From: Methanomicrobiales archaeon
GTDB taxonomy: Archaea; Halobacteriota; Methanomicrobia; Methanomicrobiales; Methanospirillaceae
Reading direction: 5' to 3'
NCBI GenBank assembly: GCA_037137755.1
Contig: JBAXJR010000007.1
Coordinates: forward strand, 1-64,000
Length of the DNA stretch: 64,000 nucleotides
The translations under genes and the position numbers were made by a program. Position 1 is the first letter of the stretch; every line of letters starts with the position of its first letter. Shown piece after piece: positions 1-63,153 of the stretch. Below the pieces are notes generated by a model. The model did no database searches. It was not told the origin of the DNA and saw only the letters and a list, made by a program, of their open reading frames with translations.

Positions 1-764
1 CGGGCAGTCTCGAATGCATCCTCGTTTTTTACCCGGATAATCTCATCCACAAGATCTTTTCTGAAGACTCCGGGTATAAAACCCGCACCAATACCCTGGA
101 TACGGTGTGCGCCGGGAGCCCCGCCGGAAAGGACCGGTGAAGCCTCAGGTTCAACCGCAATTGCGCGGAGCGATGGCTTCCTCTTCTTGATCACATCGGC
201 GACACCGGTTATCGTTCCTCCCGTCCCGACTCCTGCTACCAGGATATCGATTTTCCCGTCGGTATCGCGCCATATCTCTTCGGCAGTGGTCTTCCGGTGG
301 ATCTCCGGGTTTGCCTGGTTGTCGAACTGCTGGGGAACAAAATAATAATTCGGGTTCTCTTCTGCCATCTTCGCTGCCGTGGCGACTGCTCCTTTCATTC
401 CTCCGGGACCTGGTGTAAGGACAATCTCTGCACCGAATGCCTTGGCAAGTCTCCGCCGCTCGACGCTGAAGGTCTCAGGCATCACCAGGGTAAACTTGTA
501 TCCCCGGGCTGCACACACGAATGCAAGGGCGATACCGGTGTTACCACTCGTTGCTTCCAGAATGATCGTGTCCTTCTTGATCAGTCCCTTACGCTCGGCA
601 TCATCGATCATCGCAACGCCGATACGGTCCTTAACGCTGCTCAGCGGGTTAAAGGATTCAAGTTTTGCAACCACGGTTGCGCCGCTATCCCTGGTTACAC
701 GGTTCAGCCGCACGAGCGGGGTGTTGCCGATTGTTGCCGTGATATTATCATAGATTTTTGCCAT
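1..764 (-). CDS. cysK: Cysteine synthase A (O-acetylserine sulfhydrylase), 3' end outside window
   Basis: Manual translation from ATG 764: [20 protein letters not shown]...[16 protein letters not shown] (PLP lysine motif)...[12 protein letters not shown]. Absent from the ORF track because it runs off the edge. Confidence 0.95.
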
Positions 765-820
765 ATTTTTCCTCTATCGAATCCGGAAAACTCCCAGGTA
801 ACCTGGTGGCGATCCGGTAC

Positions 821-834
821 TTCACAATTGTTAA
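821..834. promoter_or_regulatory. Palindromic operator copy TTCACAATTGTTAA upstream of cysK
   Basis: Lies between a TATA-like TATATA (~849-854) and the cysK start; same motif recurs at 5 other sites. Confidence 0.75.
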
Positions 835-1459: not shown

Positions 1460-1533
1460 GCCGGTGTGGCAGAACGGATAAATGCCTTCGCCTGCAAAGC
1501 GAATGTCCGGAGGTTCGACTCCTCCCGCCGGCG
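1460..1533 (+). tRNA. tRNA-Cys(GCA), A37/G73 variant
   Basis: Acceptor GCCGGTG/CGCCGGC, anticodon arm TTCGC-CTGCAAA-GCGAA, T arm GGAGG-TTCGACT-CCTCC; TATA-like TTTATA at ~1429. Confidence 0.88.
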
Positions 1534-1554
1534 TCTAATGAAAGGTGTAAAAGA

Positions 1555-2814
1555 ATGAACTTATACAGCACGTTGTCAAGGATAGTTGAGCCACTTGAGA
1601 CCCTGAACCCGGACAGGGTCTCACTGTTTGTCTGCGGACCGACGGTATACGATTATTCTCACATGGGTCATGCCAGGACGTATGTAGTCTTTGATGTACT
1701 GGTAAAGTACCTCCGGTGGACGGGAAAAGAAGTCTTCTATCTCCAGAATATCACGGATGTGGATGACAAAATTATCAACCGTGCGAATGAGGAAGGTGTG
1801 TCCCAGAGTGTTCTCGCACGAAAGTTTGAAGCTGAATACCTGAGGGACATGCGATCGCTGGGAATAGATGCGGTCAGCTATTACGCCAGGGCAACCACCC
1901 ACATCCCGGAAATTGTTAACCAGGTGGAACGCCTGGTAGCCCTCGGTGTGGCATATGTAACGGAAAGCGGGGTATATTTCAACGTGGATACGTTCGAGCG
2001 CAACGGTGAACTGTCCGGCCAGGATGGAGCAAAACGTGTCAGCCGTGTGAATGACCCCTCAAAACATAACTCCCTCGATTTTGCACTCTGGAAGATCGGC
2101 GAATTCGGGGAGTACACGTGGGACTCTCCGTGGGGCAGGGGACGGCCCGGGTGGCACATCGAAGATACAGCGATATCTGAAAAGTACTTCGGGCAGCAGT
2201 ACGATATCCATGGAGGGGGGCTGGATTTGATTTTCCCTCACCATGAAGCGGAGATCTCCCAGATGGAATCGCTGGAAGGAAAACACCCGATGGTCAGGTA
2301 CTGGTTGCATACGGGGTTCCTGACAGTTAAAGGTGAGAAGATGTCAAAATCTCTTGGGAACTTTATCACCATCAGGGACGCACTCGGGACCTGGAATAAA
2401 GATGTACTAAGATATTTCATTCTCCTGTCCCACTACCGTTCCCCACTCCAGGCCACCGAGGAGGGTATAGCAAATGCGGCCCGGGTTCTTGAACATATCC
2501 GGTCAGTCGCCACAAAGGAAAGAGGTGAGAACCAGGAAGGGAGAAAAGCATTCACAGATGCCATGGACAATGACCTCAATACACCGATGGCTCTCGCGGC
2601 AATACATGCCCTCGCGGCAAGCGGGGATCTCGGGGCTTTGAAACAGTTCGGGGAGATTCTTGGGATTAATTTCCTGCGAGAGGCAAGTGCCCCTTTACAT
2701 GTACTCCAGGATATCCGGGCAGAGCTCCGTGCAAAAAAGCAGTTTGAAGTGGCGGACCTCATCCGGGAACGGATGGTCGCTGCGGGTATCACGATAACCG
2801 ATGCACCCCTGTGA
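1555..2814 (+). CDS. cysS: Cysteine--tRNA ligase (compact archaeal type)
   Basis: VCGPTVYD, HMGH, GRPGWHIEDTAI, HGGGLDLIFPHHEAE, KMSKS; start placed at ATG 1555 (SD AAGGTG) because the longer ORF overlaps the tRNA. Confidence 0.95.
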   Translation: MNLYSTLSRIVEPLETLNPDRVSLFVCGPTVYDYSHMGHARTYVVFDVLVKYLRWTGKEVFYLQNITDVDDKIINRANEEGVSQSVLARKFEAEYLRDMRSLGIDAVSYYARATTHIPEIVNQVERLVALGVAYVTESGVYFNVDTFERNGELSGQDGAKRVSRVNDPSKHNSLDFALWKIGEFGEYTWDSPWGRGRPGWHIEDTAISEKYFGQQYDIHGGGLDLIFPHHEAEISQMESLEGKHPMVRYWLHTGFLTVKGEKMSKSLGNFITIRDALGTWNKDVLRYFILLSHYRSPLQATEEGIANAARVLEHIRSVATKERGENQEGRKAFTDAMDNDLNTPMALAAIHALAASGDLGALKQFGEILGINFLREASAPLHVLQDIRAELRAKKQFEVADLIRERMVAAGITITDAPL

Positions 2815-3016: not shown

Positions 3017-3553
3017 TCAAAGGAGTGTCGGGTTCAGCATCCCGAAGATCATCGCGATGTGGGCAAACACGAGGAACGTAATGAGGAGGCTGATATGGTA
3101 TACCATATGACGTTCGGGAGGTGCGTTCTTTTTAATGATCCCAAGTTCCAGCAGGGCAATCGCAAGCAGGGGCAGGAAACCTGCTATGTAGAATCCGACT
3201 GCGATGACATCAATCGGACCACGCCAGACGATTGTCGGAATAACTGTTATCATAAGATACCCAGCGATCAGGGTAAAATAGATCCCGAGTGAAATTCCGA
3301 TATATCGGTTAACGGTACGCAGGGTGCCCGAATAATCTCGGTTGAACGCGACGAAAAATTCCGTGGCTGTCAGTGCCTCCGCCAGGATCACGGGGATCGC
3401 CATGAATAACAACAGGTTCCATGGCTGGTTGGTCATAAGCAACTGCATATAGTGGGTAACCTGCATCATCGGGTCCATGGCAGTTGCCGCCGTTGTCGCG
3501 GCAGCATGGGCGTGTTCCATCATTGTCGGGGTAACCATCGATTCCATATCCAT
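3017..3553 (-). CDS. DUF6803-like multi-pass membrane protein
   Basis: THYMQLL..NQPWNLLLFMAIPVILAE motif, about 4 TM segments, Met/His-rich N-terminus; SD GGAGA before ATG 3553. Confidence 0.7.
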   Translation of the reverse strand: MDMESMVTPTMMEHAHAAATTAATAMDPMMQVTHYMQLLMTNQPWNLLLFMAIPVILAEALTATEFFVAFNRDYSGTLRTVNRYIGISLGIYFTLIAGYLMITVIPTIVWRGPIDVIAVGFYIAGFLPLLAIALLELGIIKKNAPPERHMVYHISLLITFLVFAHIAMIFGMLNPTLL

Positions 3554-3569
3554 AGTATCTCTCCATTTA

Positions 3570-3583
3570 TTCACAATTGTGAA
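3570..3583. promoter_or_regulatory. Perfect palindromic operator TTCACAATTGTGAA
   Basis: Perfect 14-bp inverted repeat 16 nt upstream of the membrane protein start codon. Confidence 0.8.
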
Positions 3584-3694: not shown

Positions 3695-3997
3695 CTAAGA
3701 AAATTTTTTCCAGAAAGAATTCCGGTATTCAGCCTGGGAATTGTCCTCTTTTAAGTATTTTTCCCCTGGCTGGGGTTTATATTTATCCGGGTCATCCAAA
3801 GCCTTCTGACATTCATCCGATATGCTGAAACAATCTCCATCGCACTGCTTGGCAATTCGGCTCCTGATCTCCCTGACTTTTTCAAGTTTTTCAAGCCTCG
3901 TATTTATGTCATCAATTTTTTTGCCCTGCAGATCTATTGCTGCAAGCAGTTCATTCATTCGTGCAAGGATCTGTTTATCGGTTTCCTGTTCGTTCAT
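3695..3997 (-). CDS. Hypothetical protein, coiled-coil N-half with CDGDC..C motif
   Basis: 100 aa ORF with SD AGGAG and protein-like composition. Confidence 0.65.
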   Translation of the reverse strand: MNEQETDKQILARMNELLAAIDLQGKKIDDINTRLEKLEKVREIRSRIAKQCDGDCFSISDECQKALDDPDKYKPQPGEKYLKEDNSQAEYRNSFWKKFS

Positions 3998-4183: not shown

Positions 4184-4463
4184 TCATGCCAGAACTGCTT
4201 CCTGTTCTACGTTATTTAACCCATAAAGGCTCTGACGGGCGTCAATGAAATAATAACGCTCGATAAGGAAATTCTCAGTCTTCAGCCTTTTCAGGGCGTA
4301 CCTGACAGTCCTTGAAGGCAGAAGGGTTTTCTCTATCAGGTCCTTCTGTGTCAACTGACCGTCGGTTTGCAGTACCCTGTACACGAGCTTTGCCGATGGT
4401 GGCAGGTGCCCGATGTTTTTTAAGTTATTGCTGGTTGCTTTTACAACAAAAACGATCCCTCAT
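4184..4463 (-). CDS. Small winged-HTH (MarR-like) transcription regulator; frame discontinuity near 5' end
   Basis: HLPPSAKLVYRVL..LTQKDLIEKTLLPSRTVRYALKRL..DARQSLY. The LPPSAKL motif lies upstream of the GTG at 4384, and the SD-linked ATG at 4463 is in another frame (HTH frame is +1). Confidence 0.8.
4425..4463 (-). other. 12-codon leader ORF MRDRFCCKSNQQ* with tandem Cys codons
   Basis: AAGGTGA-TCCACT-ATG AGG GAT CGT TTT TGT TGT AAA AGC AAC CAG CAA TAA read on the minus strand. Confidence 0.6.
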
Positions 4464-4489
4464 AGTGGATCACCTTACCTAGGTGGTAG

Positions 4490-4503
4490 TTCACAATTGT
4501 TAA
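4490..4503. promoter_or_regulatory. Operator copy TTCACAATTGTTAA upstream of HTH regulator
   Basis: 26 nt upstream of ATG 4463; suggests autoregulation. Confidence 0.75.
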
Positions 4504-4712
4504 GTATTTCGGTAATCCTGTTTTTTCTATCCTGGACATTTCCACAAAAGGATTAGAAAATTTTGGTGTTCCTGTTTTTGGTGCACAATATTTACCGGGA
4601 TTACATACTATATACTATCCCATCGGAATGCGGCAATTACCCATTCATGTGAAAACCCGGGTGTACAACGACGTGAAAGAGAGATCAGGAAAAACCTGCC
4701 GGTGACCGAACC

Positions 4713-4762
4713 TATAAATATTCACAATTGTTACCTAGTATGGTAAAATTCACAATCGTGAA
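4713..4762 (+). promoter_or_regulatory. TATA box (TATAAATA) followed by two operator copies (4721-4734, 4749-4762)
   Basis: TATAAATA-TTCACAATTGTTAC...TTCACAATCGTGAA immediately before tRNA-Cys/pscS. Confidence 0.8.
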
Positions 4763-4774
4763 TTTTGATTACCT

Positions 4775-4846
4775 GCCAAGGTGGCGGAGTGGCCACGCGG
4801 CTGACTGCAGATCAGCTACACTCCGGTTCAAATCCGGACCTTGGCT
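4775..4846 (+). tRNA. tRNA-Cys(GCA), canonical methanogen G37/U73 type
   Basis: Acceptor GCCAAGG/CCTTGGC+T, anticodon arm GCTGA-CTGCAGA-TCAGC, T arm CCGG-TTCAAAT-CCGG. Confidence 0.95.
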
Positions 4847-4924
4847 TTCTCCAGGGATTTCTTCATAATCCTGAAGAAGAATAAAGATTCAGAAGCATAT
4901 CTTCATCGCAGTTGTGATTTAAGC

Positions 4925-6289
4925 ATGAGTATCAGAATCCAGAAAACATTTGAAGCGCTCTTCCAGCTCGAAGAAGTCCGGGGACTTTTCCGGGAGTCGC
5001 TACCAACCGGGTTGGATGCTGAAGAGGAAGCCACCTTCAGGAAGCGGATTGCTGATCTTAAGGCAATCGTTGCTGACCTCGAGGCGGGTACCGGCAGTCC
5101 TAAGGTGACAAAGATTGCCGGATCCATAGACTTGCGGACGAGGGAAGAGGAGTACATCAATATCCAGCCGATCCAGGCAGCTGGCCGGTTGACGACGGAG
5201 GCGAGGAAGGCCCTGATCTCCTACGGTGACGGGTACTCAACGTGTGATGCCTGCCGGAAACCATTTCGCCTTGATAAGATTTCCAAGCCGGGTATTGCGG
5301 AATTCCATGCTGATTTGGCAAAGTTTGTCAATATGGACCAGGCCAGGGTTGTTCCCGGTGCACGCCGTGGTTTCCAGGCTGTTGCCAGTACTCTCGTTGA
5401 GAAAGGCGATAGCGTAATTGTATCTGCCCTTGCCCACTATACAGAGTTCCTCTCAGTGGAAAATGCAGGGGGGGTTGTAAAGGAAGTACCACTGAATGAA
5501 AAGAATATCGTAACCGGCGAAGCAACGGCACAGAAGATCGAAGATGTCAAACGGGAGACCGGAAAACTCCCGGTGCTTGTGATGATCGACCACTTCGACT
5601 ACCAGTTCGCAAACGAGCATGAAGTAAAAGAGATCGGAAAAATTGCCCACCAGTACGACATTCCGTTCCTCTATAACGGGGCTTATACAGTTGGTATCCA
5701 GCCTGTTGATGGTAAGGCAATCGGAGCTGACTTTGTTGTCGGCTCCGGACACAAGAGTATGGCATCGGTCGCGCCGTCCGGGGTACTTGCAATGACCGAT
5801 GAATGGGCGCCAAAGGCGCTCCGTACGACCGCGATGGTTGGCGACCTTACCAAGCGTAAATTTGGTATCAAGGAAGTGGAAATGCTCGGGTGCACGCTGA
5901 TGGGCGGCACACTGCTCTCCATGATGGCATCGTTCCCTGCCGTTAAAGCCAGAACCCTGAAATGGGAAGAAGAAGTGAAGAAATCCAACTTCTTCATTGA
6001 CCGTCTTCTCAGGATCAACGGTAGCAGGGTGCTATCAGAGTATCCACGCAAACATACCCTGACAAAAGTTGATACAACCGGAAGCTTCGATACGGTTGCC
6101 CAGACTCACAAACGTCGCGGATTTTACTTCAGCGATGAACTCTCGTCGCGAGGAATTGTCGGTGAGTTTGCAGGTGCAACCAGGACATGGAAGCTGAATA
6201 CCTATGGCCTCAACGAGAAGCAGATCCACTACCTTGCGGATGCCTTCACAGAAATCGCAGAAAAATATGAGATCCCAGTCGCAAAGTGA
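4925..6289 (+). CDS. pscS: Sep-tRNA:Cys-tRNA synthase with N-terminal SepCysE-like domain (SepCysSN)
   Basis: INIQPIQAAGRLT, GDGYSTCDAC, GSGHKS (PLP Lys), LGCT; about 60 aa helical N-terminal extension. Confidence 0.93.
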   Translation: MSIRIQKTFEALFQLEEVRGLFRESLPTGLDAEEEATFRKRIADLKAIVADLEAGTGSPKVTKIAGSIDLRTREEEYINIQPIQAAGRLTTEARKALISYGDGYSTCDACRKPFRLDKISKPGIAEFHADLAKFVNMDQARVVPGARRGFQAVASTLVEKGDSVIVSALAHYTEFLSVENAGGVVKEVPLNEKNIVTGEATAQKIEDVKRETGKLPVLVMIDHFDYQFANEHEVKEIGKIAHQYDIPFLYNGAYTVGIQPVDGKAIGADFVVGSGHKSMASVAPSGVLAMTDEWAPKALRTTAMVGDLTKRKFGIKEVEMLGCTLMGGTLLSMMASFPAVKARTLKWEEEVKKSNFFIDRLLRINGSRVLSEYPRKHTLTKVDTTGSFDTVAQTHKRRGFYFSDELSSRGIVGEFAGATRTWKLNTYGLNEKQIHYLADAFTEIAEKYEIPVAK

Positions 6290-7823: not shown

Positions 7824-9314
7824 ATGATCAAAGGATCAGTAGGACTTGTAAAAACAAAATATTATCACCATTCCTCCCCGCTTGATCTTGAGAGCGGGGA
7901 GACGCTCCCCTCATTTACGCTCGCGTATGAAACATACGGGACCCTGAACAAGGAAGCAAGCAATGCTATTCTGTTATGCCATGCGCTTTCCGGTGATGCT
8001 CACGCAGCTGGTTACCATGCCGGTGAAGATAAGCCGGGATGGTGGGATTCTGTAATCGGCCCCGGAAAAGCGTTTGATACTGGTAAATACTTTGTTATCT
8101 GTTCGAATGTGATCGGCGGGTGTAAAGGTTCAACAGGCCCGTCTTCGGAAAACCCTGAAACCAAGGAACCATACGGAATTTCATTTCCCGTCATAACGAT
8201 AAGGGATATGGTTAATGCCCAGAAACACCTGGTTGACCACCTCGGGATCAACAGGCTTTATGCCATAGCAGGAGGTTCGATGGGTGGCATGCAGGTTCTC
8301 CAGTGGACAGTAATCTGGCCGGACCATGTAAGTAAGGCAATTGTGATCGCATCAACCGCCTACTCAACGCCCCAGCAGATCGCGTTCAACGAAGTGGGAA
8401 GGATTGCCATTACTTCCGACCCTGCATGGGAGAATGGGAATTATTACTCGCAGAAATCATACGATTCCAGCGGCCCGTTCCGTGGCCTCGCACTAGCACG
8501 GATGGTTGGCCATATCACCTACCTTTCAAATGAGTCCATGCATGAAAAGTTTGGCAGGGCATTGCAGGACAAAGACCAGATTGGTTATAATTTCTCGACA
8601 GATTTTGCCGTCGAGAGTTATCTCCATCACCAGGGAGACACCTTCACCCAGCGGTTCGATGCCAACTCGTACCTCTACATCACAAAGGCAGTAGATTACT
8701 TCGACCTGACAAAAGACGGATCGCTCGCAAAAGGGCTTGCAGGAGTACATGGTGCATTCCTCGTCATCTCGGTCTCCTCCGACTGGCTCTATCCCCCATA
8801 CCAGTCACAGGAGATCGTATCAGCATTGGCAGCGAATGACCGGGACGTACGTTACAGCGAGATCCGGTCAAATTTCGGCCATGATGCGTTTCTGCTGGAA
8901 TCAGGCCAGATCAATTACCTGATCTCCCAGTTCCTTTCAAAAACGGTCGTTGGCGATGTCATGATCCGGGACGTCCCGACTATTGAGGAAGGTGCAACAA
9001 CTGCCGTGACTGCCCGGCGGTTAATCAACCTCGAGGTCAATCATCTGCCGGTACTTTCGTGCAGCGGTCAGCTGGTGGGGATTGTTACATCATGGGACAT
9101 CGCAAAAGCAGTAGCGGGAAATTTCCTGTGGCTTGATGAGATCATGTCAAAAAAAGTCATAACTACTGTTCCGGATGAACCGATCGAATCTGCCGCAAAA
9201 AAAATGGAGGAACACTCCATCTCGGCCTTGCCGGTCGTCGATGAAGACCAGCACCTTATCGGTCTCATCACCAGTGATGCACTCAGTATACTTATCGGGA
9301 GGGGTAATTCATGA
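7824..9314 (+). CDS. metX: Homoserine O-acetyltransferase with C-terminal CBS pair
   Basis: [15 protein letters not shown] nucleophile elbow, GHDAFL; tandem CBS domains. Confidence 0.92.
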
Positions 9315-9895
9315 GGATCCTCTCCATCCATGCATCATCGATGTGGTATAATGCAAATCAGAAGACAAAAATGGCAGAACCTGTCACTGTCCGCGAAGAC
9401 AGGATGGAGGAATGCGTTGTACTCTTCTGTTGTGTTGAGAAACTCGATGAGAAAAATCCTGACCAGGTGGTAAGGGGTGCATCTTCGGGTGTCCTGGTGC
9501 GGCTGGGGAAGCTCAAAGTCAGCAGGGTGTTGATCTACCCTTTTGCACACCTGGCAAGTTCACTCGGACAGCCAGGTATCGCGCTTGACATCCTTAAGGG
9601 ACTAGAAACCACCCTCATAAACTCATCAATAGAGGTCAAAAAGGCCCCTTTCGGGTGGTACAAGGAGTTCGAAATCAGGGGGAAAGGGCATCCCCTTGCC
9701 GACCTTTCGATGACGATTTGCCCATATGACGGGTCGGAACGTGATTTTTCATGCCCGTACTGCAACCATCCGATAAAAACTTCTGACCTCTCTGATGCGA
9801 ATGCGGGTGCGGACAGGAACCAACAGATAACCGGGGGCCATGGATGCAGTTCCGGAAAAAATTATGGATTTGAACTGGTAGAACATCATGACTGA
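9311..9895 (+). CDS. Free-standing archaeal ThrRS editing domain protein with C-terminal Cys motif
   Basis: [38 protein letters not shown]; followed by CPYD..CPYC. Confidence 0.85.
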
Positions 9896-63139: not shown

Positions 63140-63153
63140 GTAACAATTGTGAA
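63140..63153. promoter_or_regulatory. Operator copy (reverse complement TTCACAATTGTTAC) upstream of cysteine desulfurase
   Basis: GTAACAATTGTGAA is the exact reverse complement of the 4721-4734 copy. Confidence 0.75.

What the first reader, a model, noticed from the sequence alone, without database searches (positions are those of the whole stretch)
4184..4475. Candidate cysteine-sensing translational switch: CysCys leader ORF and +1 frameshift site at the head of an HTH regulator
Seen: a strong archaeal SD (AAGGTGA) precedes ATG 4463, which reads MRDRFCCKSNQQ* (CGT TTT TGT TGT AAA...TAA). The HTH protein is in the +1 frame. That frame is open from just after the ATG but has no ATG/GTG/TTG until GTG 4384, which would cut off the family-typical LPPSAKL segment. 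Established: +1 frameshifts occur when a P-site tRNA can re-pair (UUU-U) while the A-site codon is hungry or slow (as in prfB). Inference: low Cys-tRNA(Cys) would stall the ribosome at UGU-UGU, and Phe-tRNA slippage would give a 92 aa MRDRF-VVKAT...HTH protein. Alternatively the leader acts as an attenuator or reinitiation device, a logic that fits better if the protein is a repressor. The gene lies divergent from tRNA-Cys/pscS in a sulfur island, which makes the tandem Cys codons less likely to be chance. I know of no such described system in archaea.
Basis: partly seen in the sequence, partly recalled or inferred. Interest (0 to 1): 0.92.

Follow-up and report, generated by a model that had tools for sequence, protein, structure and literature searches.

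The report
Cysteine-codon frameshift switch in methanogens
A small DNA-binding regulator gene beside the cysteine-tRNA genes can apparently be made only if the ribosome slips forward one base at a cysteine codon, and this layout is kept across many methanogen lineages, which would make it a new way for cells to sense an amino acid.

Summary
On the minus strand an 8-nt Shine-Dalgarno (4474-4467) leads ATG 4463, which reads MRDRFCCKSNQQ*. The winged-helix (wHTH) frame is +1, open from 4459, with no ATG/GTG/TTG before GTG 4384.

This layout is conserved well beyond the genome. Of 198 unique homologous loci, 164 carry the core ATCGNYTTTGY. All 164 have an in-frame leader ATG, and 112 have no canonical start in the wHTH frame. 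The core lies a multiple of 3 nt from the LPPS helix in 163 of 164, at 16 different distances. The linker has stops in 0 of 164 in the wHTH frame, against 155 and 158 in the other two frames. Carriers are titled Methanoregula, Methanospirillum, Methanoculleus, Methanothrix, Methanoperedens, Methanosarcina and Methanocellaceae.

The site is YUU_UGY. CUU_U and UUU_U are the shift sites used by bacterial RF2, but here a Cys codon replaces the UGA. In Methanoregulaceae the gene sits among tRNA-Cys, SepCysS, cysS and cysK behind a shared palindrome.

Best reading: a +1 programmed frameshift that probably reports Cys-tRNA(Cys) supply. The frameshift is inferred from comparative evidence, and the sensing and its sign are untested. 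My literature searches found no description of it.

The parts
4467..4476 (-). Shine-Dalgarno AAGGTGATCC. The GGTGATCC part pairs 8 of 8 with the 16S 3' tail and lies 3 nt before the ATG (6 nt counted from GGTGA).
   Evidence: duplex energy -17.7 kcal/mol. In 45 SD-led orthologues without an in-frame start the median is -15.6. In other lineages GGTGA or GGAGA is kept 6-8 nt before the ATG while the spacer sequence differs.
4425..4463 (-). Leader ORF in the 0 frame: ATG AGG GAT CGT TTT TGT TGT AAA AGC AAC CAG CAA TAA, giving MRDRFCCKSNQQ*.
   Evidence: The leader M-R/S-D/N-R-F/L-C is conserved. Its length after the Cys codon varies from 0 to about 8 codons in most loci.
4454..4461 (-). Internal SD-like GAGGGATC, ending 2 nt before the slip codon. 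It is a possible frameshift stimulator (inferred).
   Evidence: The duplex with GGAUCACCUCCU is -11.5 kcal/mol, which is the 1% quantile of 20,000 random 14-mers of the genome. It is near-invariant in relatives.
4446..4451 (-). Proposed shift site: TTT (4451-4449, P site) followed by TGT (4448-4446, A site, Cys). After a +1 slip the A-site codon is GTT (4447-4445).
   Evidence: The first base of the slip codon is T in 110, C in 55, A in 0 and G in 0 of 165 unique loci. The next codon is TGT in 98 and TGC in 67. The genome has one tRNA-Phe(GAA), one tRNA-Leu(GAG) and three tRNA-Cys(GCA) genes.
4184..4459 (-). Open +1 frame encoding the wHTH regulator (91 codons plus stop). The predicted frameshift product is residues MRDRF followed by codons 4447-4187, 92 aa in all.
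   Evidence: The linker from the cassette to LPPS is kept in frame and free of stops in relatives.
4490..4503 (.). Palindrome TTCACAATTGTTAA (1 mismatch to TTCACAATTGTGAA) in the regulator's own promoter. It overlaps a CGAAA-N-TTAAC stretch that resembles a BRE/TATA element (my reading).
   Evidence: The palindrome is present 28-60 nt upstream of the leader ATG in 86 of 87 family orthologues.
4721..4762 (.). Two palindrome copies (4721-4734 with 2 mismatches, 4749-4762 with 1 mismatch) between a TATAAATA box and tRNA-Cys.
   Evidence: Of 60 tRNA-Cys genes in orthologous loci, 39 have the palindrome within 110 nt upstream.
4775..4846 (+). tRNA-Cys (GCA), divergent from the regulator and directly upstream of SepCysS.
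4925..6289 (+). Sep-tRNA:Cys-tRNA synthase (SepCysS). The start is probably ATG 4925 (my reading of the ORF listed).
   Evidence: NF006810, 632 bits.
1460..2814 (+). A second tRNA-Cys (1460-1533) followed by cysteine--tRNA ligase (cysS).
   Evidence: TIGR00435, 416 bits.
3..834 (-). cysK (cysteine synthase, running off the window start) with the palindrome at 821-834 in its upstream region.
3017..3583 (-). DUF6803 membrane protein with a perfect palindrome at 3570-3583, just before its start.

Best explanation
The wHTH regulator is expressed by a programmed +1 ribosomal frameshift. Ribosomes start at the SD-led ATG 4463 and read M-R-D-R-F. With peptidyl-tRNA-Phe on UUU (in relatives, tRNA-Leu on CUU) and the Cys codon UGU waiting in the A site, a fraction of ribosomes slip one base forward onto UUU. 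They then read GUU and make the 92-aa regulator. Ribosomes that do not slip incorporate Cys and terminate after a peptide of 6-13 residues. The A-site codon is always Cys, and in this family the gene lies among tRNA-Cys, SepCysS, cysS and cysK behind a shared palindromic operator. The slip rate is therefore most likely set by the supply of Cys-tRNA(Cys), which would make the leader a translational sensor that sets the level of a regulator of cysteine and sulfur genes. What is shown: the architecture, its conservation, and translation of the +1 frame starting at the cassette. What is inferred: the slip at YUU_U, the role of the internal SD-like GAG(G/U)GAUC, the dependence on Cys-tRNA, and that this protein binds the palindrome.
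For: (1) The layout is not an artefact. It is present in 85 of 228 genomes of the family, including closed single-contig genomes, and contigs from other runs show no indel.

(2) I detected the core ATCGNYTTTGY without regard to frame in 198 unique loci, and 164 carry it.
- The distance from the core to the LPPS codon is a multiple of 3 in 163 of 164, over 16 different lengths from 38 to 93 nt.
- Stops between the site and LPPS occur in 0 of 164 in the wHTH frame, against 155 and 158 of 164 in the other two frames.
- An ATG in frame with YTT-TGY lies within 39 nt upstream in 164 of 164.
- A canonical start in the wHTH frame is absent in 112, is present only downstream and not conserved in 23, and lies at or 5' of the cassette in 29.

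(3) The slip rules fit. In 165 unique loci chosen by a protein motif, the first base of the slip codon is T in 110, C in 55, A in 0 and G in 0. In nearly all of these it is a four-fold degenerate third position in the wHTH frame, and GTA plus GTG make up 44% of Val codons in this genome. The wHTH-frame Phe codon in that alignment column is never TTC (its third base is T in 165 of 165), although TTC is 54% of Phe codons genome-wide. The third base of the Cys codon is T in 98 and C in 67. Third-position entropy is about 0 at these sites against a mean of 1.42 bits in the gene body.

(4) The RF2 shift sites are CUU_U and, in a minority, UUU_U (passages of PMC5009743).

(5) CGT to CGA or CGC, seen in Methanothrix and some Methanosarcinaceae, keeps Arg in the leader but changes V to D or A in the wHTH frame.

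(6) Both family orthologues that lost the slip site (L067, L111) have an in-frame GTG. L095 carries a 1-nt deletion that fuses the leader ATG frame to the HTH.

(7) A strong SD is kept where no in-frame start exists (median -15.6 kcal/mol, n=45) and decays where GTG appears (median -6.9, n=30).

(8) Homologues without the cassette have plain in-frame ATGs and unrelated N-termini. These are the haloarchaea-like GC-rich families f13, f21, f22 and f25 and the paralogues.

(9) Context. In the 87 family loci all 61 flanking tRNA genes are tRNA-Cys. SepCysS is present in 30 loci, cysS in 15 and cysK in 9. The palindrome regulon is described.
Against: - No protein, junction peptide, Ribo-seq or transcript data exist. 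The one RNA run laid covers only tRNA-Cys.
- The wHTH-frame codons 5' of the slip (G-I-V-F) are also nearly invariant. Several changes there are synonymous in that frame: GGG to GGA in 20 of 165, GTT to GTC in 55, and ATC to ATT in 1. A pure YUU_U shift does not require this. It may reflect a nucleotide-level signal, a shift further upstream, or some initiation in that frame.
- 29 of 164 loci have an in-frame GTG right after ATGA, so the frameshift is not obligatory there. The GGG/GTG state toggles 4-12 times on the tree.
- tRNA-Cys has three gene copies in this genome, so the Cys codon is not obviously served by a scarce tRNA.
- The operators sit over or just after the presumed TATA/TSS of cysK, tRNA-Cys/SepCysS and the gene itself (positions are my reading). 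That is typical of repression. More repressor when Cys-tRNA is low would not be homeostatic for these genes.
- The internal SD-like duplex is only at the 1% quantile of random 14-mers.
- In the one Methanosarcina locus (L270) and one Methanocellaceae locus (L216) I annotated, the neighbours are not Cys genes.
- From recall, not from any call: archaeal tRNA-Phe and tRNA-Leu carry position-37 modifications that suppress +1 slippage.
Confidence: 0.6

Rival explanations
1. There is no frameshift. The regulator starts at a non-canonical codon in its own frame (AUC or AUU two codons after the TGA, or GUG where present). The SD-led ATG leader is an overlapping regulatory uORF whose Cys codon stalls ribosomes over that start, so low Cys-tRNA would lower regulator synthesis rather than raise it.
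For: NCBI's pipeline called exactly this start in two records (P0040 MVFVV..., P0172 MVFVD...). The codon is ATC in 161 of 165 loci and ATT in 1. G-I-V-F is conserved, with changes that are synonymous in that frame. 29 of 164 loci have an in-frame GTG.
Against: The SD is placed 6-8 nt before the ATG in all SD-led lineages, about 13 nt from ATC. A cognate AUG at optimal spacing should take nearly all initiations. The Methanospirillum-type loci have no SD and a TATA-like box about 35 nt before the ATG. This suggests a very short 5' UTR (my reading), where a 5'-proximal AUG is expected to be used. This rival does not explain why the first base of the slip codon is only T or C. It also does not explain V to D at wHTH codon 3 with the leader Arg kept, or the L095 fusion to the leader ATG. 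That AUC is an inefficient start in archaea is from recall.
Confidence: 0.15
2. A +1 frameshift occurs but is not a cysteine sensor. It is a fixed-ratio or otherwise controlled event, for example driven by the SD-like element, polyamines or the initiation rate. Alternatively the shift happens earlier, at AGG_G or at the start codon itself, and the Cys codon is kept for another reason, such as a function of the hexapeptide MRDRFC.
For: The whole 14-nt block AG(G/T)GATCGTYTTTG is conserved, not only the slip site. AGG_G allows re-pairing of tRNA-Arg(CCU), which is my inference. Start-codon-associated frameshifting under nutrient stress has been reported in mammalian cells (10.1101/2023.02.15.528768, search listing and start of the abstract only). 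There are three tRNA-Cys genes. The neighbours examined in Methanosarcina and Methanocella are not Cys genes.
Against: Cys is the only residue at that codon in every cassette, with both synonymous codons in use (TGT 98, TGC 67). AGG is AGT in 27 of 165, which cannot re-pair on GUG. Linkage to tRNA-Cys recurs in Methanoregulaceae, Methanoperedens (tRNA-Cys about 40-60 nt downstream of the gene), Methanothrix (cysS) and some Methanosarcinaceae.
Confidence: 0.2
3. The layout reflects a sequencing or assembly error, a pseudogene or phase variation at the T5 run, or transcriptional slippage that removes one U.
For: The site contains a T5 homopolymer.
Against: The same frame arrangement is found in 164 unique loci from many assemblies, including closed genomes. 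51 of the 164 have CTT, so the run is only T3, which is too short for polymerase slippage (the slippage length requirement is from recall). Contigs of runs X2 and X8 agree with the window. The gene body shows strong purifying selection, with entropy of 0.46 bits at codon positions 1 and 2 against 1.42 bits at position 3.
Confidence: 0.02

Closest known systems
Bacterial release factor 2 (prfB) autoregulatory +1 frameshift, with the sequence AGG GGG UAU CUU UGA C recalled for E. coli. The shift site and SD stimulator are from passages of PMC5009743.
   Same: A short 0-frame ORF precedes a main product in the +1 frame. The shift sites are the same, CUU_U or UUU_U, with wobble pairing in the P site. 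An SD-like element lies a few nt 5' of the shift codon. The A-site triplet begins with UG. Output is expected to rise when the A-site codon is read slowly.
   Different: The A site holds a sense codon (Cys, UGY) rather than the stop UGA. The product is a DNA-binding regulator, not the factor that reads the codon, so any feedback is indirect. The shift is at codon 5-6 rather than codon 26. The organisms are archaea. The spacing of the SD-like element is 2 nt rather than 3, and it pairs with the GAUCAC part of the rRNA tail.
Hungry-codon +1 frameshifting: yeast Ty1 CUU_AGG_C, and starvation-induced shifts in E. coli (Gallant and Lindsley). Both are recalled. 'Hungry' frameshifting is mentioned in PMC8211752 (section 7).
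   Same: P-site tRNA slippage is favoured while the A site waits for a limiting aminoacyl-tRNA.
   Different: Ty1 sets a fixed Gag:Pol ratio in a retrotransposon, and the E. coli cases are laboratory errors. The cassette here is conserved in a cellular regulator gene and appears tied to one amino acid's tRNA pathway.
Antizyme +1 frameshift (polyamine sensor), from passages of PMC5009743.
   Same: The frameshift acts as both the sensor and the effector of a metabolic feedback circuit, and only the frameshift product is functional.
   Different: Antizyme senses a small molecule at a UCC_UGA stop with an RNA pseudoknot and is eukaryotic. No RNA structure was found here.
Leader-peptide attenuation (trp, his, pheL) and T-box systems that sense aminoacyl-tRNA in bacteria (recalled; pheL passages).
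   Same: A short leader ORF holds codons of the amino acid whose pathway is regulated, and ribosome speed on those codons is the signal.
   Different: The proposed read-out is a change of reading frame within one ORF rather than a terminator/antiterminator switch. Only a single Cys codon is conserved, not a run. No alternative hairpins were found.
Archaeal recoding known so far: fucA1 -1 frameshift of Saccharolobus solfataricus, a putative Mg-chelatase -1 frameshift, and a +1 frameshift in haloarchaeal virus HSTV-2 (PMC8211752 section 7).
   Same: Programmed frameshifting by archaeal ribosomes.
   Different: Those are -1 events or viral, show no known metabolic sensing and have narrow distribution. 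This would be a cellular +1 event conserved across several orders.

Membership tests
RF2-type (prfB) +1 frameshift cassette | Shift site CUU_U (in a minority UUU_U) with the main ORF in the +1 frame | tested here: met
   The slip codon is TTT in 113 and CTT in 51 of 164 cassettes, always followed by T, and the wHTH frame is +1. The RF2 rule is from PMC5009743 passages.
RF2-type (prfB) +1 frameshift cassette | The A-site codon is the stop UGA, read by the gene's own product (direct autoregulation) | tested here: not met
   The A-site codon is TGT or TGC (Cys) in all cassettes. The product is a wHTH protein. The cassette works like prfB but is not a member of that family.
RF2-type (prfB) +1 frameshift cassette | An internal Shine-Dalgarno-like stimulator about 3 nt 5' of the shift codon | tested here: inconclusive
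   GAG(G/U)GAUC ends 2 nt before YUU. Its duplex with the 16S tail is -11.5 kcal/mol (range -7.1 to -13.7 in relatives), at the 1% quantile of random 14-mers. Function was not tested.
Hungry-codon +1 frameshift | The P-site tRNA can re-pair in the +1 frame | tested here: met
   UUU_U re-pairs identically, and CUU_U re-pairs with a first-position G:U pair. tRNA-Phe(GAA) and tRNA-Leu(GAG) are the only readers found.
Hungry-codon +1 frameshift | The A-site codon is decoded slowly because its aminoacyl-tRNA is limiting | not testable with these tools
   Cys codons make up 1.2% of codons, but three tRNA-Cys genes exist. Charging levels are unknown.
Leader-peptide transcription attenuator | A run of regulatory codons plus alternative terminator/antiterminator hairpins | tested here: not met
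   Only one Cys codon is conserved. Folds of 15 orthologous 60-nt regions gave z-scores from -1.5 to +1.3 with no shared structure.
Winged-helix HTH regulators (Pfam HTH_24; MarR/Lrp-like) | A match to the family profile above the curated cut-off | tested here: met
   PF13412 with E=9.8e-7, 28.7 bits against a cut-off of 21.9. The nearest solved structure is only the HTH of PF0864, an Lrp/AsnC-type regulator by recall, at E=0.005.
Autoregulated operator-binding repressor or activator | The protein binds the palindrome TTCACAATTGTGAA at its own and target promoters | not testable with these tools
   The site is present upstream of the gene in 86 of 87 orthologues and before cysK, tRNA-Cys/SepCysS, two DUF6803 genes and a class-V aminotransferase. 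Which protein binds it is unknown.

The most novel reading that the evidence does not exclude
This is an ancient translational amino-acid sensor. In methanogens and ANME archaea of at least four orders, the charging state of tRNA-Cys is read directly by the ribosome at a YUU_UGY site five codons into a leader. The resulting +1 frameshift sets the amount of a winged-helix regulator that governs tRNA-Cys, SepCysS, CysRS, CysK and cysteine desulfurase genes. In these organisms Cys-tRNA(Cys) can be made on the tRNA from sulfide-derived sulfur. If true, it would be the first cellular +1 programmed frameshift in Archaea, and the first natural frameshift switch that senses an aminoacyl-tRNA to control a transcription factor.
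Probability: 0.4. Interest if true: 0.95.

Novelty: new variant of a known kind. Interest (0 to 1): 0.9.

Why it matters
Recoding in Archaea is almost unexplored. A 2021 review lists one proven -1 frameshift, and its only +1 case is in a haloarchaeal virus, not a cellular gene (PMC8211752). This cassette is small at about 35 nt and sharply defined. It is conserved over very large evolutionary distances and is present in cultured organisms. By record title or source-given protein name these include Methanoculleus palmolei DSM 4273, Methanosarcina thermophila, Methanosarcina sp. DH2, Z-7115 and Ant1, and Methanothrix soehngenii. It is therefore directly testable.

If it works as proposed, it adds a third logic for sensing aminoacyl-tRNA, beside attenuation and T-boxes. 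It would show that archaeal ribosomes use RF2-like slip rules. It would also identify a regulator and operator for the poorly understood control of cysteine and sulfur metabolism and of tRNA-dependent Cys synthesis in methanogens.

It has a practical side for annotation. Gene callers currently give these genes inconsistent truncated or ATC-initiated models of 66 to 95 aa.

Tried and rejected
- RNA structure. Folding 60 nt around the site in 15 orthologues gave no shared hairpin or pseudoknot, with z-scores from -1.5 to +1.3. A weak GAUCC/GGAUC stem that would hide the SD appears in only some of them. I dropped it as an explanation for the conservation.
- 16S of the window's own genome. None is assembled, so the anti-SD was read from a genome of the same genus.
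- Reads. Only Logan contigs were on offer, not raw reads. X7 does not cover 4316-4477, and X8 covers 4447-4522 only. The RNA run X19 covers only tRNA-Cys, so nothing can be said about the regulator's transcript. The habitat labels of runs with small word shares were not used.
- Test of 'GTG gained goes with SD weakened' on independent tree pairs. The direction fits (about 2.5 pairs against 0), but only 4 supported pairs exist, giving a median p of 0.25, which is not significant. The tree has few columns and many open forks.
- Other copies of the cassette in this genome. There are none. One chance match to the short core lies in C22. My first regex in that script was mis-specified and matched nothing.
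- PDB sequence search. It returned only weak HTH hits, and no structure was predicted.
- classified all loci held, duplicates included: 151 with the cassette and no in-frame start upstream, 41 with the cassette and an in-frame start, 34 without the cassette, and 15 missed by my motif regex. I rely instead on the de-duplicated, frame-agnostic counts. In one search the regex itself fixes CGN, YTT and TGY, so those three tallies are composition counts and not tests. The test is, which selected loci by a protein motif. Rows with under 200 nt upstream, or without a PPS-type motif in the BLAST hit, were dropped before counting.
- Literature. The searches (the peptide string MRDRFC) found no description of this cassette or regulator. 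For PMC3711429 (GeneTack frameshift clusters) I searched only the main text and found no mention of Methanoregula, Methanosphaerula or Methanospirillum. Its cluster lists are in supplements or a database that I could not see and might bear on prior detection. Subscription-only papers are not in the library.
Full report
**The observation.** All positions here are on the minus strand. AAGGTGATCC lies at 4476-4467 and is followed three bases later by ATG 4463-4461. The 0 frame reads AGG GAT CGT TTT TGT TGT AAA AGC AAC CAG CAA TAA, which translates to MRDRFCCKSNQQ* with its stop at 4427-4425. The winged-helix frame is +1 relative to this ATG. It is closed by the TGA that overlaps ATGA (4462-4460) and then runs open from 4459 to the stop at 4186-4184. 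Its first ATG, GTG or TTG is GTG 4384, which would remove the LPPSAKL start of helix 1. Reading the T run as one four-base step gives a 92-aa protein, MRDRFVVKAT.... The protein matches Pfam HTH_24 above its cut-off.

**Not an error.** The first search of relatives showed the same out-of-frame layout in other genera. In the whole family, 85 of 228 genomes have an orthologue at E<=1e-18, and I fetched all of them. I could classify 87 orthologues:
- 55 have no ATG, GTG or TTG anywhere in the wHTH frame before LPPS.
- 2 have only a late, non-conserved TTG.
- 28 have a GTG directly after ATGA with the leader intact.
- 2 have lost the slip site (L067, L111), and both of these have the GTG.

L072 and L025 are further no-start cases. 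The carriers include closed single-contig genomes. Independent Logan contigs of runs X2 (4392-4469 and 4445-4733, no differences) and X8 (4447-4522, no gaps) cross the T5 run without an indel. These are contigs rather than raw reads, and X2 may belong to the campaign the genome came from.

**Distribution beyond the family.** A protein-based scan of one genome per species returned 588 relatives, of which the best 80 are listed with record titles (the first attempt gave no answer). By title, the same cassette is present in these groups:
- Methanoregula, Methanoregulaceae and Methanospirillum MAGs
- Methanoculleus palmolei DSM 4273
- Methanotrichaceae and Methanothrix
- Candidatus Methanoperedens
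- Methanosarcina sp. Z-7115, DH2, Ant1 and UBA7, and Methanosarcinaceae MAGs
- Methanocellaceae

An even sample of the phylum gave matches in 163 of 401 genomes. The loci I read from further families again carry the cassette. The GC-rich families f13, f21, f22 and f25, which look haloarchaeal, and the paralogues have a plain in-frame ATG and unrelated N-termini. In the genus that holds the Methanosarcina records, 23 of 59 species genomes have the orthologue at E<=1e-25, so its presence there is patchy.

**Which frames are translated.** I located the core ATCGNYTTTGY without regard to frame in 198 unique loci that had at least 200 nt upstream. 164 have it. The findings for those 164 are as follows.
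- The distance from the core to the Leu codon of LPPS takes 16 different values between 38 and 93 nt. It is a multiple of three in 163 of 164. The exception is L095.
- Between the site and LPPS, 0 of 164 loci have a stop in the wHTH frame, against 155 and 158 of 164 in the other two frames.
- An ATG in frame with YTT-TGY lies within 39 nt upstream in all 164.
- Where extra codons are inserted between the ATG and the core (Methanospirillum type MTRRDRFC, Methanoperedens type MNFRRNRLC), the insert is 6 or 9 nt.

The variable linker is therefore translated in the wHTH frame, in register with the cassette. This excludes downstream starts such as GTG 4384. An SD (GGTGA or GGAGA) stays 6-8 nt before the ATG although the spacer sequence differs between lineages. 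The ATG therefore has the hallmarks of a real start. Translation starts in one frame and continues in another. 112 of 164 loci offer no canonical start in the second frame, and 23 more have only non-conserved downstream ones.

**The site.** I selected 165 unique loci by a protein motif, so the nucleotides in question were not used for selection.
- The first base of the slip codon is T in 110, C in 55, and never A or G. In the wHTH frame it is a four-fold degenerate third position in nearly all of them. GTA plus GTG make 44% of Val codons in this genome.
- The next two bases, and the first base of the following codon, are T in 165 of 165. The overlapping wHTH-frame Phe codon is therefore never TTC, although TTC is 54% of Phe codons.
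- The following codon is TGT in 98 and TGC in 67, which is Cys in both cases. This T/C choice changes the wHTH-frame residue between Val and Ala.
- The second codon after the slip varies, and is a stop in Methanosarcina (MRDRFC*) and many Methanothrix (MRDRLC*).

Within the family, third-position entropy is about 0 bits at the leader sites against a mean of 1.42 bits in the gene body. YUU_U is the shift site of bacterial RF2, which uses CUU_U and, in a minority of species, UUU_U (passages of PMC5009743). The genome has single tRNA-Phe(GAA) and tRNA-Leu(GAG) genes, both of which read these codons by G:U wobble, and three tRNA-Cys(GCA) genes.

Two bases upstream of the slip codon lies GAG(G/U)GAUC. 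It pairs with the 16S tail GGAUCACCUCCU at -11.5 kcal/mol, which is the 1% quantile of random 14-mers. In two GC-rich relatives it is AGGAGUGAUC, at -13.6 and -13.7. This recalls the SD-like stimulator of prfB, but the resemblance is suggestive only. No conserved RNA structure was found.

**Points that cut the other way.**
- The wHTH-frame codons 5' of the slip (G-I-V-F) are almost invariant too. Some changes there are synonymous in that frame: GGG to GGA in 20 of 165, GTT to GTC in 55, and ATC to ATT in 1.
- Other changes are synonymous in the leader and radical in the wHTH frame. CGT to CGA or CGC occurs in 11 of 164 and changes V to D or A. TGT to TGC changes V to A.
- Both frames therefore look constrained. 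This fits a nucleotide-level signal plus leader coding, but it does not fix the exact point of the shift.
- NCBI's pipeline models two of these genes with an ATC start (P0040, P0172). Other gene calls are inconsistent truncations of 66-89 aa.
- The GGG/GTG state toggles 4-12 times on a poorly resolved tree, so the in-frame GTG comes and goes.

Where the GTG is absent and an SD is used, the SD is uniformly strong (median -15.6 kcal/mol, n=45). Where the GTG is present, the SD has decayed (median -6.9, n=30). The Methanospirillum-type loci have none (median -1.7, n=12). The tree-paired test of this association is under-powered (p=0.25).

L095 carries a 1-nt deletion in the linker that fuses the leader's ATG frame to the HTH, giving MSDRFCWYWSTADPALPPS. 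If it is not an assembly error, it is a natural hard-wired version that uses the leader ATG.

**Context and regulon.** The window holds the following genes:
- cysK (3-764, minus strand)
- tRNA-Cys (1460-1533) followed by cysS
- a DUF6803 membrane protein (3017-3574, minus strand)
- a 100-aa ORF
- the regulator
- tRNA-Cys (4775-4846) followed by SepCysS
- O-acetylhomoserine sulfhydrylase, MetX and ThiI

In the 87 family loci, all 61 tRNA genes found in the flanks are tRNA-Cys. They occur in 40 loci. SepCysS is present in 30 loci, cysS in 15 and cysK in 9.

The palindrome TTCACAATTGTGAA occurs 21 times in the genome at up to 2 mismatches, against 8.8 expected for up to 2 mismatches. Seven of these sites have at most 1 mismatch. 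Six of the seven sit before cysK, the regulator itself, tRNA-Cys/SepCysS, two DUF6803 genes and a class-V aminotransferase. The seventh lies near an HTH_3 gene. A site with 2 mismatches lies before a second class-V aminotransferase at window position 63140.

The palindrome lies 28-60 nt upstream of the leader ATG in 86 of 87 orthologues. It lies within 110 nt upstream of 39 of 60 tRNA-Cys genes.

Outside the family, the 1-1.5 kb flanks give this picture:
- Methanoperedens has tRNA-Cys just downstream of the gene.
- Methanothrix has cysS next to it.
- Some Methanosarcinaceae have tRNA-Cys or cysS nearby.
- No Cys-related gene or tRNA-Cys was found in the flanks of the Methanosarcina-genus loci (L253-L272).

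The one Methanosarcina locus (L270) and one Methanocellaceae locus (L216) I annotated have NifH-like, isochorismatase, radical-SAM and MFS neighbours instead.

**Mechanism and its weak point.** The most economical reading is a hungry-codon +1 frameshift. With Phe- or Leu-tRNA on YUU and the A site waiting for Cys-tRNA(Cys), the P-site tRNA re-pairs on UUU, and Val- or Ala-tRNA reads the new A-site codon. When Cys-tRNA is plentiful, the ribosome makes a 6-13 residue peptide and stops. The regulator level would then rise when Cys-tRNA(Cys) is short.

In organisms with SepRS and SepCysS, mature Cys-tRNA also reports the supply of sulfur donor (from established knowledge of that pathway). The weak point is the sign of the feedback. 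The operator copies lie over or just after the presumed TATA/TSS of cysK, tRNA-Cys/SepCysS and the gene itself (my reading). That position is typical of repression, and more repressor at low Cys-tRNA would not be homeostatic. In the Methanospirillum type the site lies just upstream of the TATA-like box, which is an activator-like position. Whether this protein binds the palindrome at all has not been tested.

**Comparison with what is known.** The cassette works like prfB in its shift site, the +1 main frame, the short leader and the SD-like element. It is not a member of that family, because the A-site codon is a sense codon and the product is a transcription factor. It shares its sensing logic with hungry-codon shifts and with leader-peptide attenuation, but it lacks the codon run and the hairpins of attenuators. 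A 2021 review states that only one -1 frameshift (fucA1) is proven in archaea, with a putative Mg-chelatase case and one +1 case in a haloarchaeal virus (PMC8211752, abstract and section 7). My searches found nothing on this cassette.

**Verdict.** The cassette is a real, sharply defined and deeply conserved recoding candidate. I put about 0.7 on a +1 frameshift being the route to the regulator. I put about 0.4-0.45 on the full Cys-tRNA-sensing model, and 0.6 on the combined statement as worded under Best explanation. Related genomes are not independent, so the counts overstate the number of independent observations. The spread over several orders, with diverged linkers, SD spacers and operators, is the stronger argument.

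Noticed in passing
window 1460-2814 and 4775-6289; G000 C60:11656-11727: Each of the two Cys-tRNA-forming enzyme genes (cysS, SepCysS) is directly preceded on the same strand by its own tRNA-Cys gene. The genome has three tRNA-Cys(GCA) genes among the 38 tRNA genes found, and of the families I tabulated it is the only anticodon with more than one copy. This suggests the tRNA and its enzyme are co-transcribed and that the tRNA-Cys level itself is regulated.
   Followed up: partly
window 821-834, 3570-3583, 4490-4503, 4721-4762, 63140-63153; G000 C41:3354, C66:7547, C95:2191: The palindrome TTCACAATTGTGAA marks a small candidate regulon: cysK, tRNA-Cys/SepCysS, two DUF6803 membrane proteins, two class-V aminotransferases of the family that holds cysteine desulfurases, and the regulator itself. 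Other lineages carry different palindromes before the gene, for example TTAACTATTGTTAAG in loci titled Methanocellaceae and GTTAACAATTGTTAT in Methanotrichaceae.
   Followed up: partly
window 3017-3574 (-) and L121:1637-2173 (-): Two paralogous DUF6803 membrane proteins of unknown function each have a perfect palindrome followed by ATGTGAA immediately before the start. They are candidates for a sulfur- or cysteine-related transporter.
   Followed up: no
window 3695-3997 (-): A 100-aa ORF lies directly downstream of the regulator on the same strand, with no Pfam or NCBIfam match. It has a Cys-containing stretch (CDGDCFSISDEC) and is conserved next to the regulator in 5 loci of the same genus at 65-100% identity.
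   Followed up: partly
L095 (G220:C45): This is the single orthologue in which a 1-nt deletion in the linker fuses the leader ATG frame to the HTH (MSDRFCWYWSTADPALPPS). It is either a natural hard-wired variant or a MAG assembly error.
   Followed up: partly
L167, L172, L176, L184, L187, L193, L206, L218 (Ca. Methanoperedens): In Methanoperedens a tRNA-Cys gene follows the regulator gene by about 40-60 nt. This is a different arrangement from the divergent one in the window, yet it is again linked to tRNA-Cys.
   Followed up: partly
L197 (QKCL01000028.1): A contig titled 'Spirochaetes bacterium' carries a Methanosarcina-type cassette and regulator. It is probably a mis-binned archaeal contig.
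   Followed up: no
L002-L004, L015-L035, L249: Paralogous small wHTH genes (about 45-50% identity) with normal ATG starts mostly have a direct repeat GTTAAC-N3-GTTAAC just upstream of, or overlapping, the start. This is a separate family that looks autoregulated.
   Followed up: no
window 9311-9895 (+): A free-standing 194-aa protein matches only the N-terminal part of threonine--tRNA ligase and Ser-tRNA(Thr) hydrolase. It may be a trans-editing factor, sitting in the same island as the Cys-tRNA genes.
   Followed up: no
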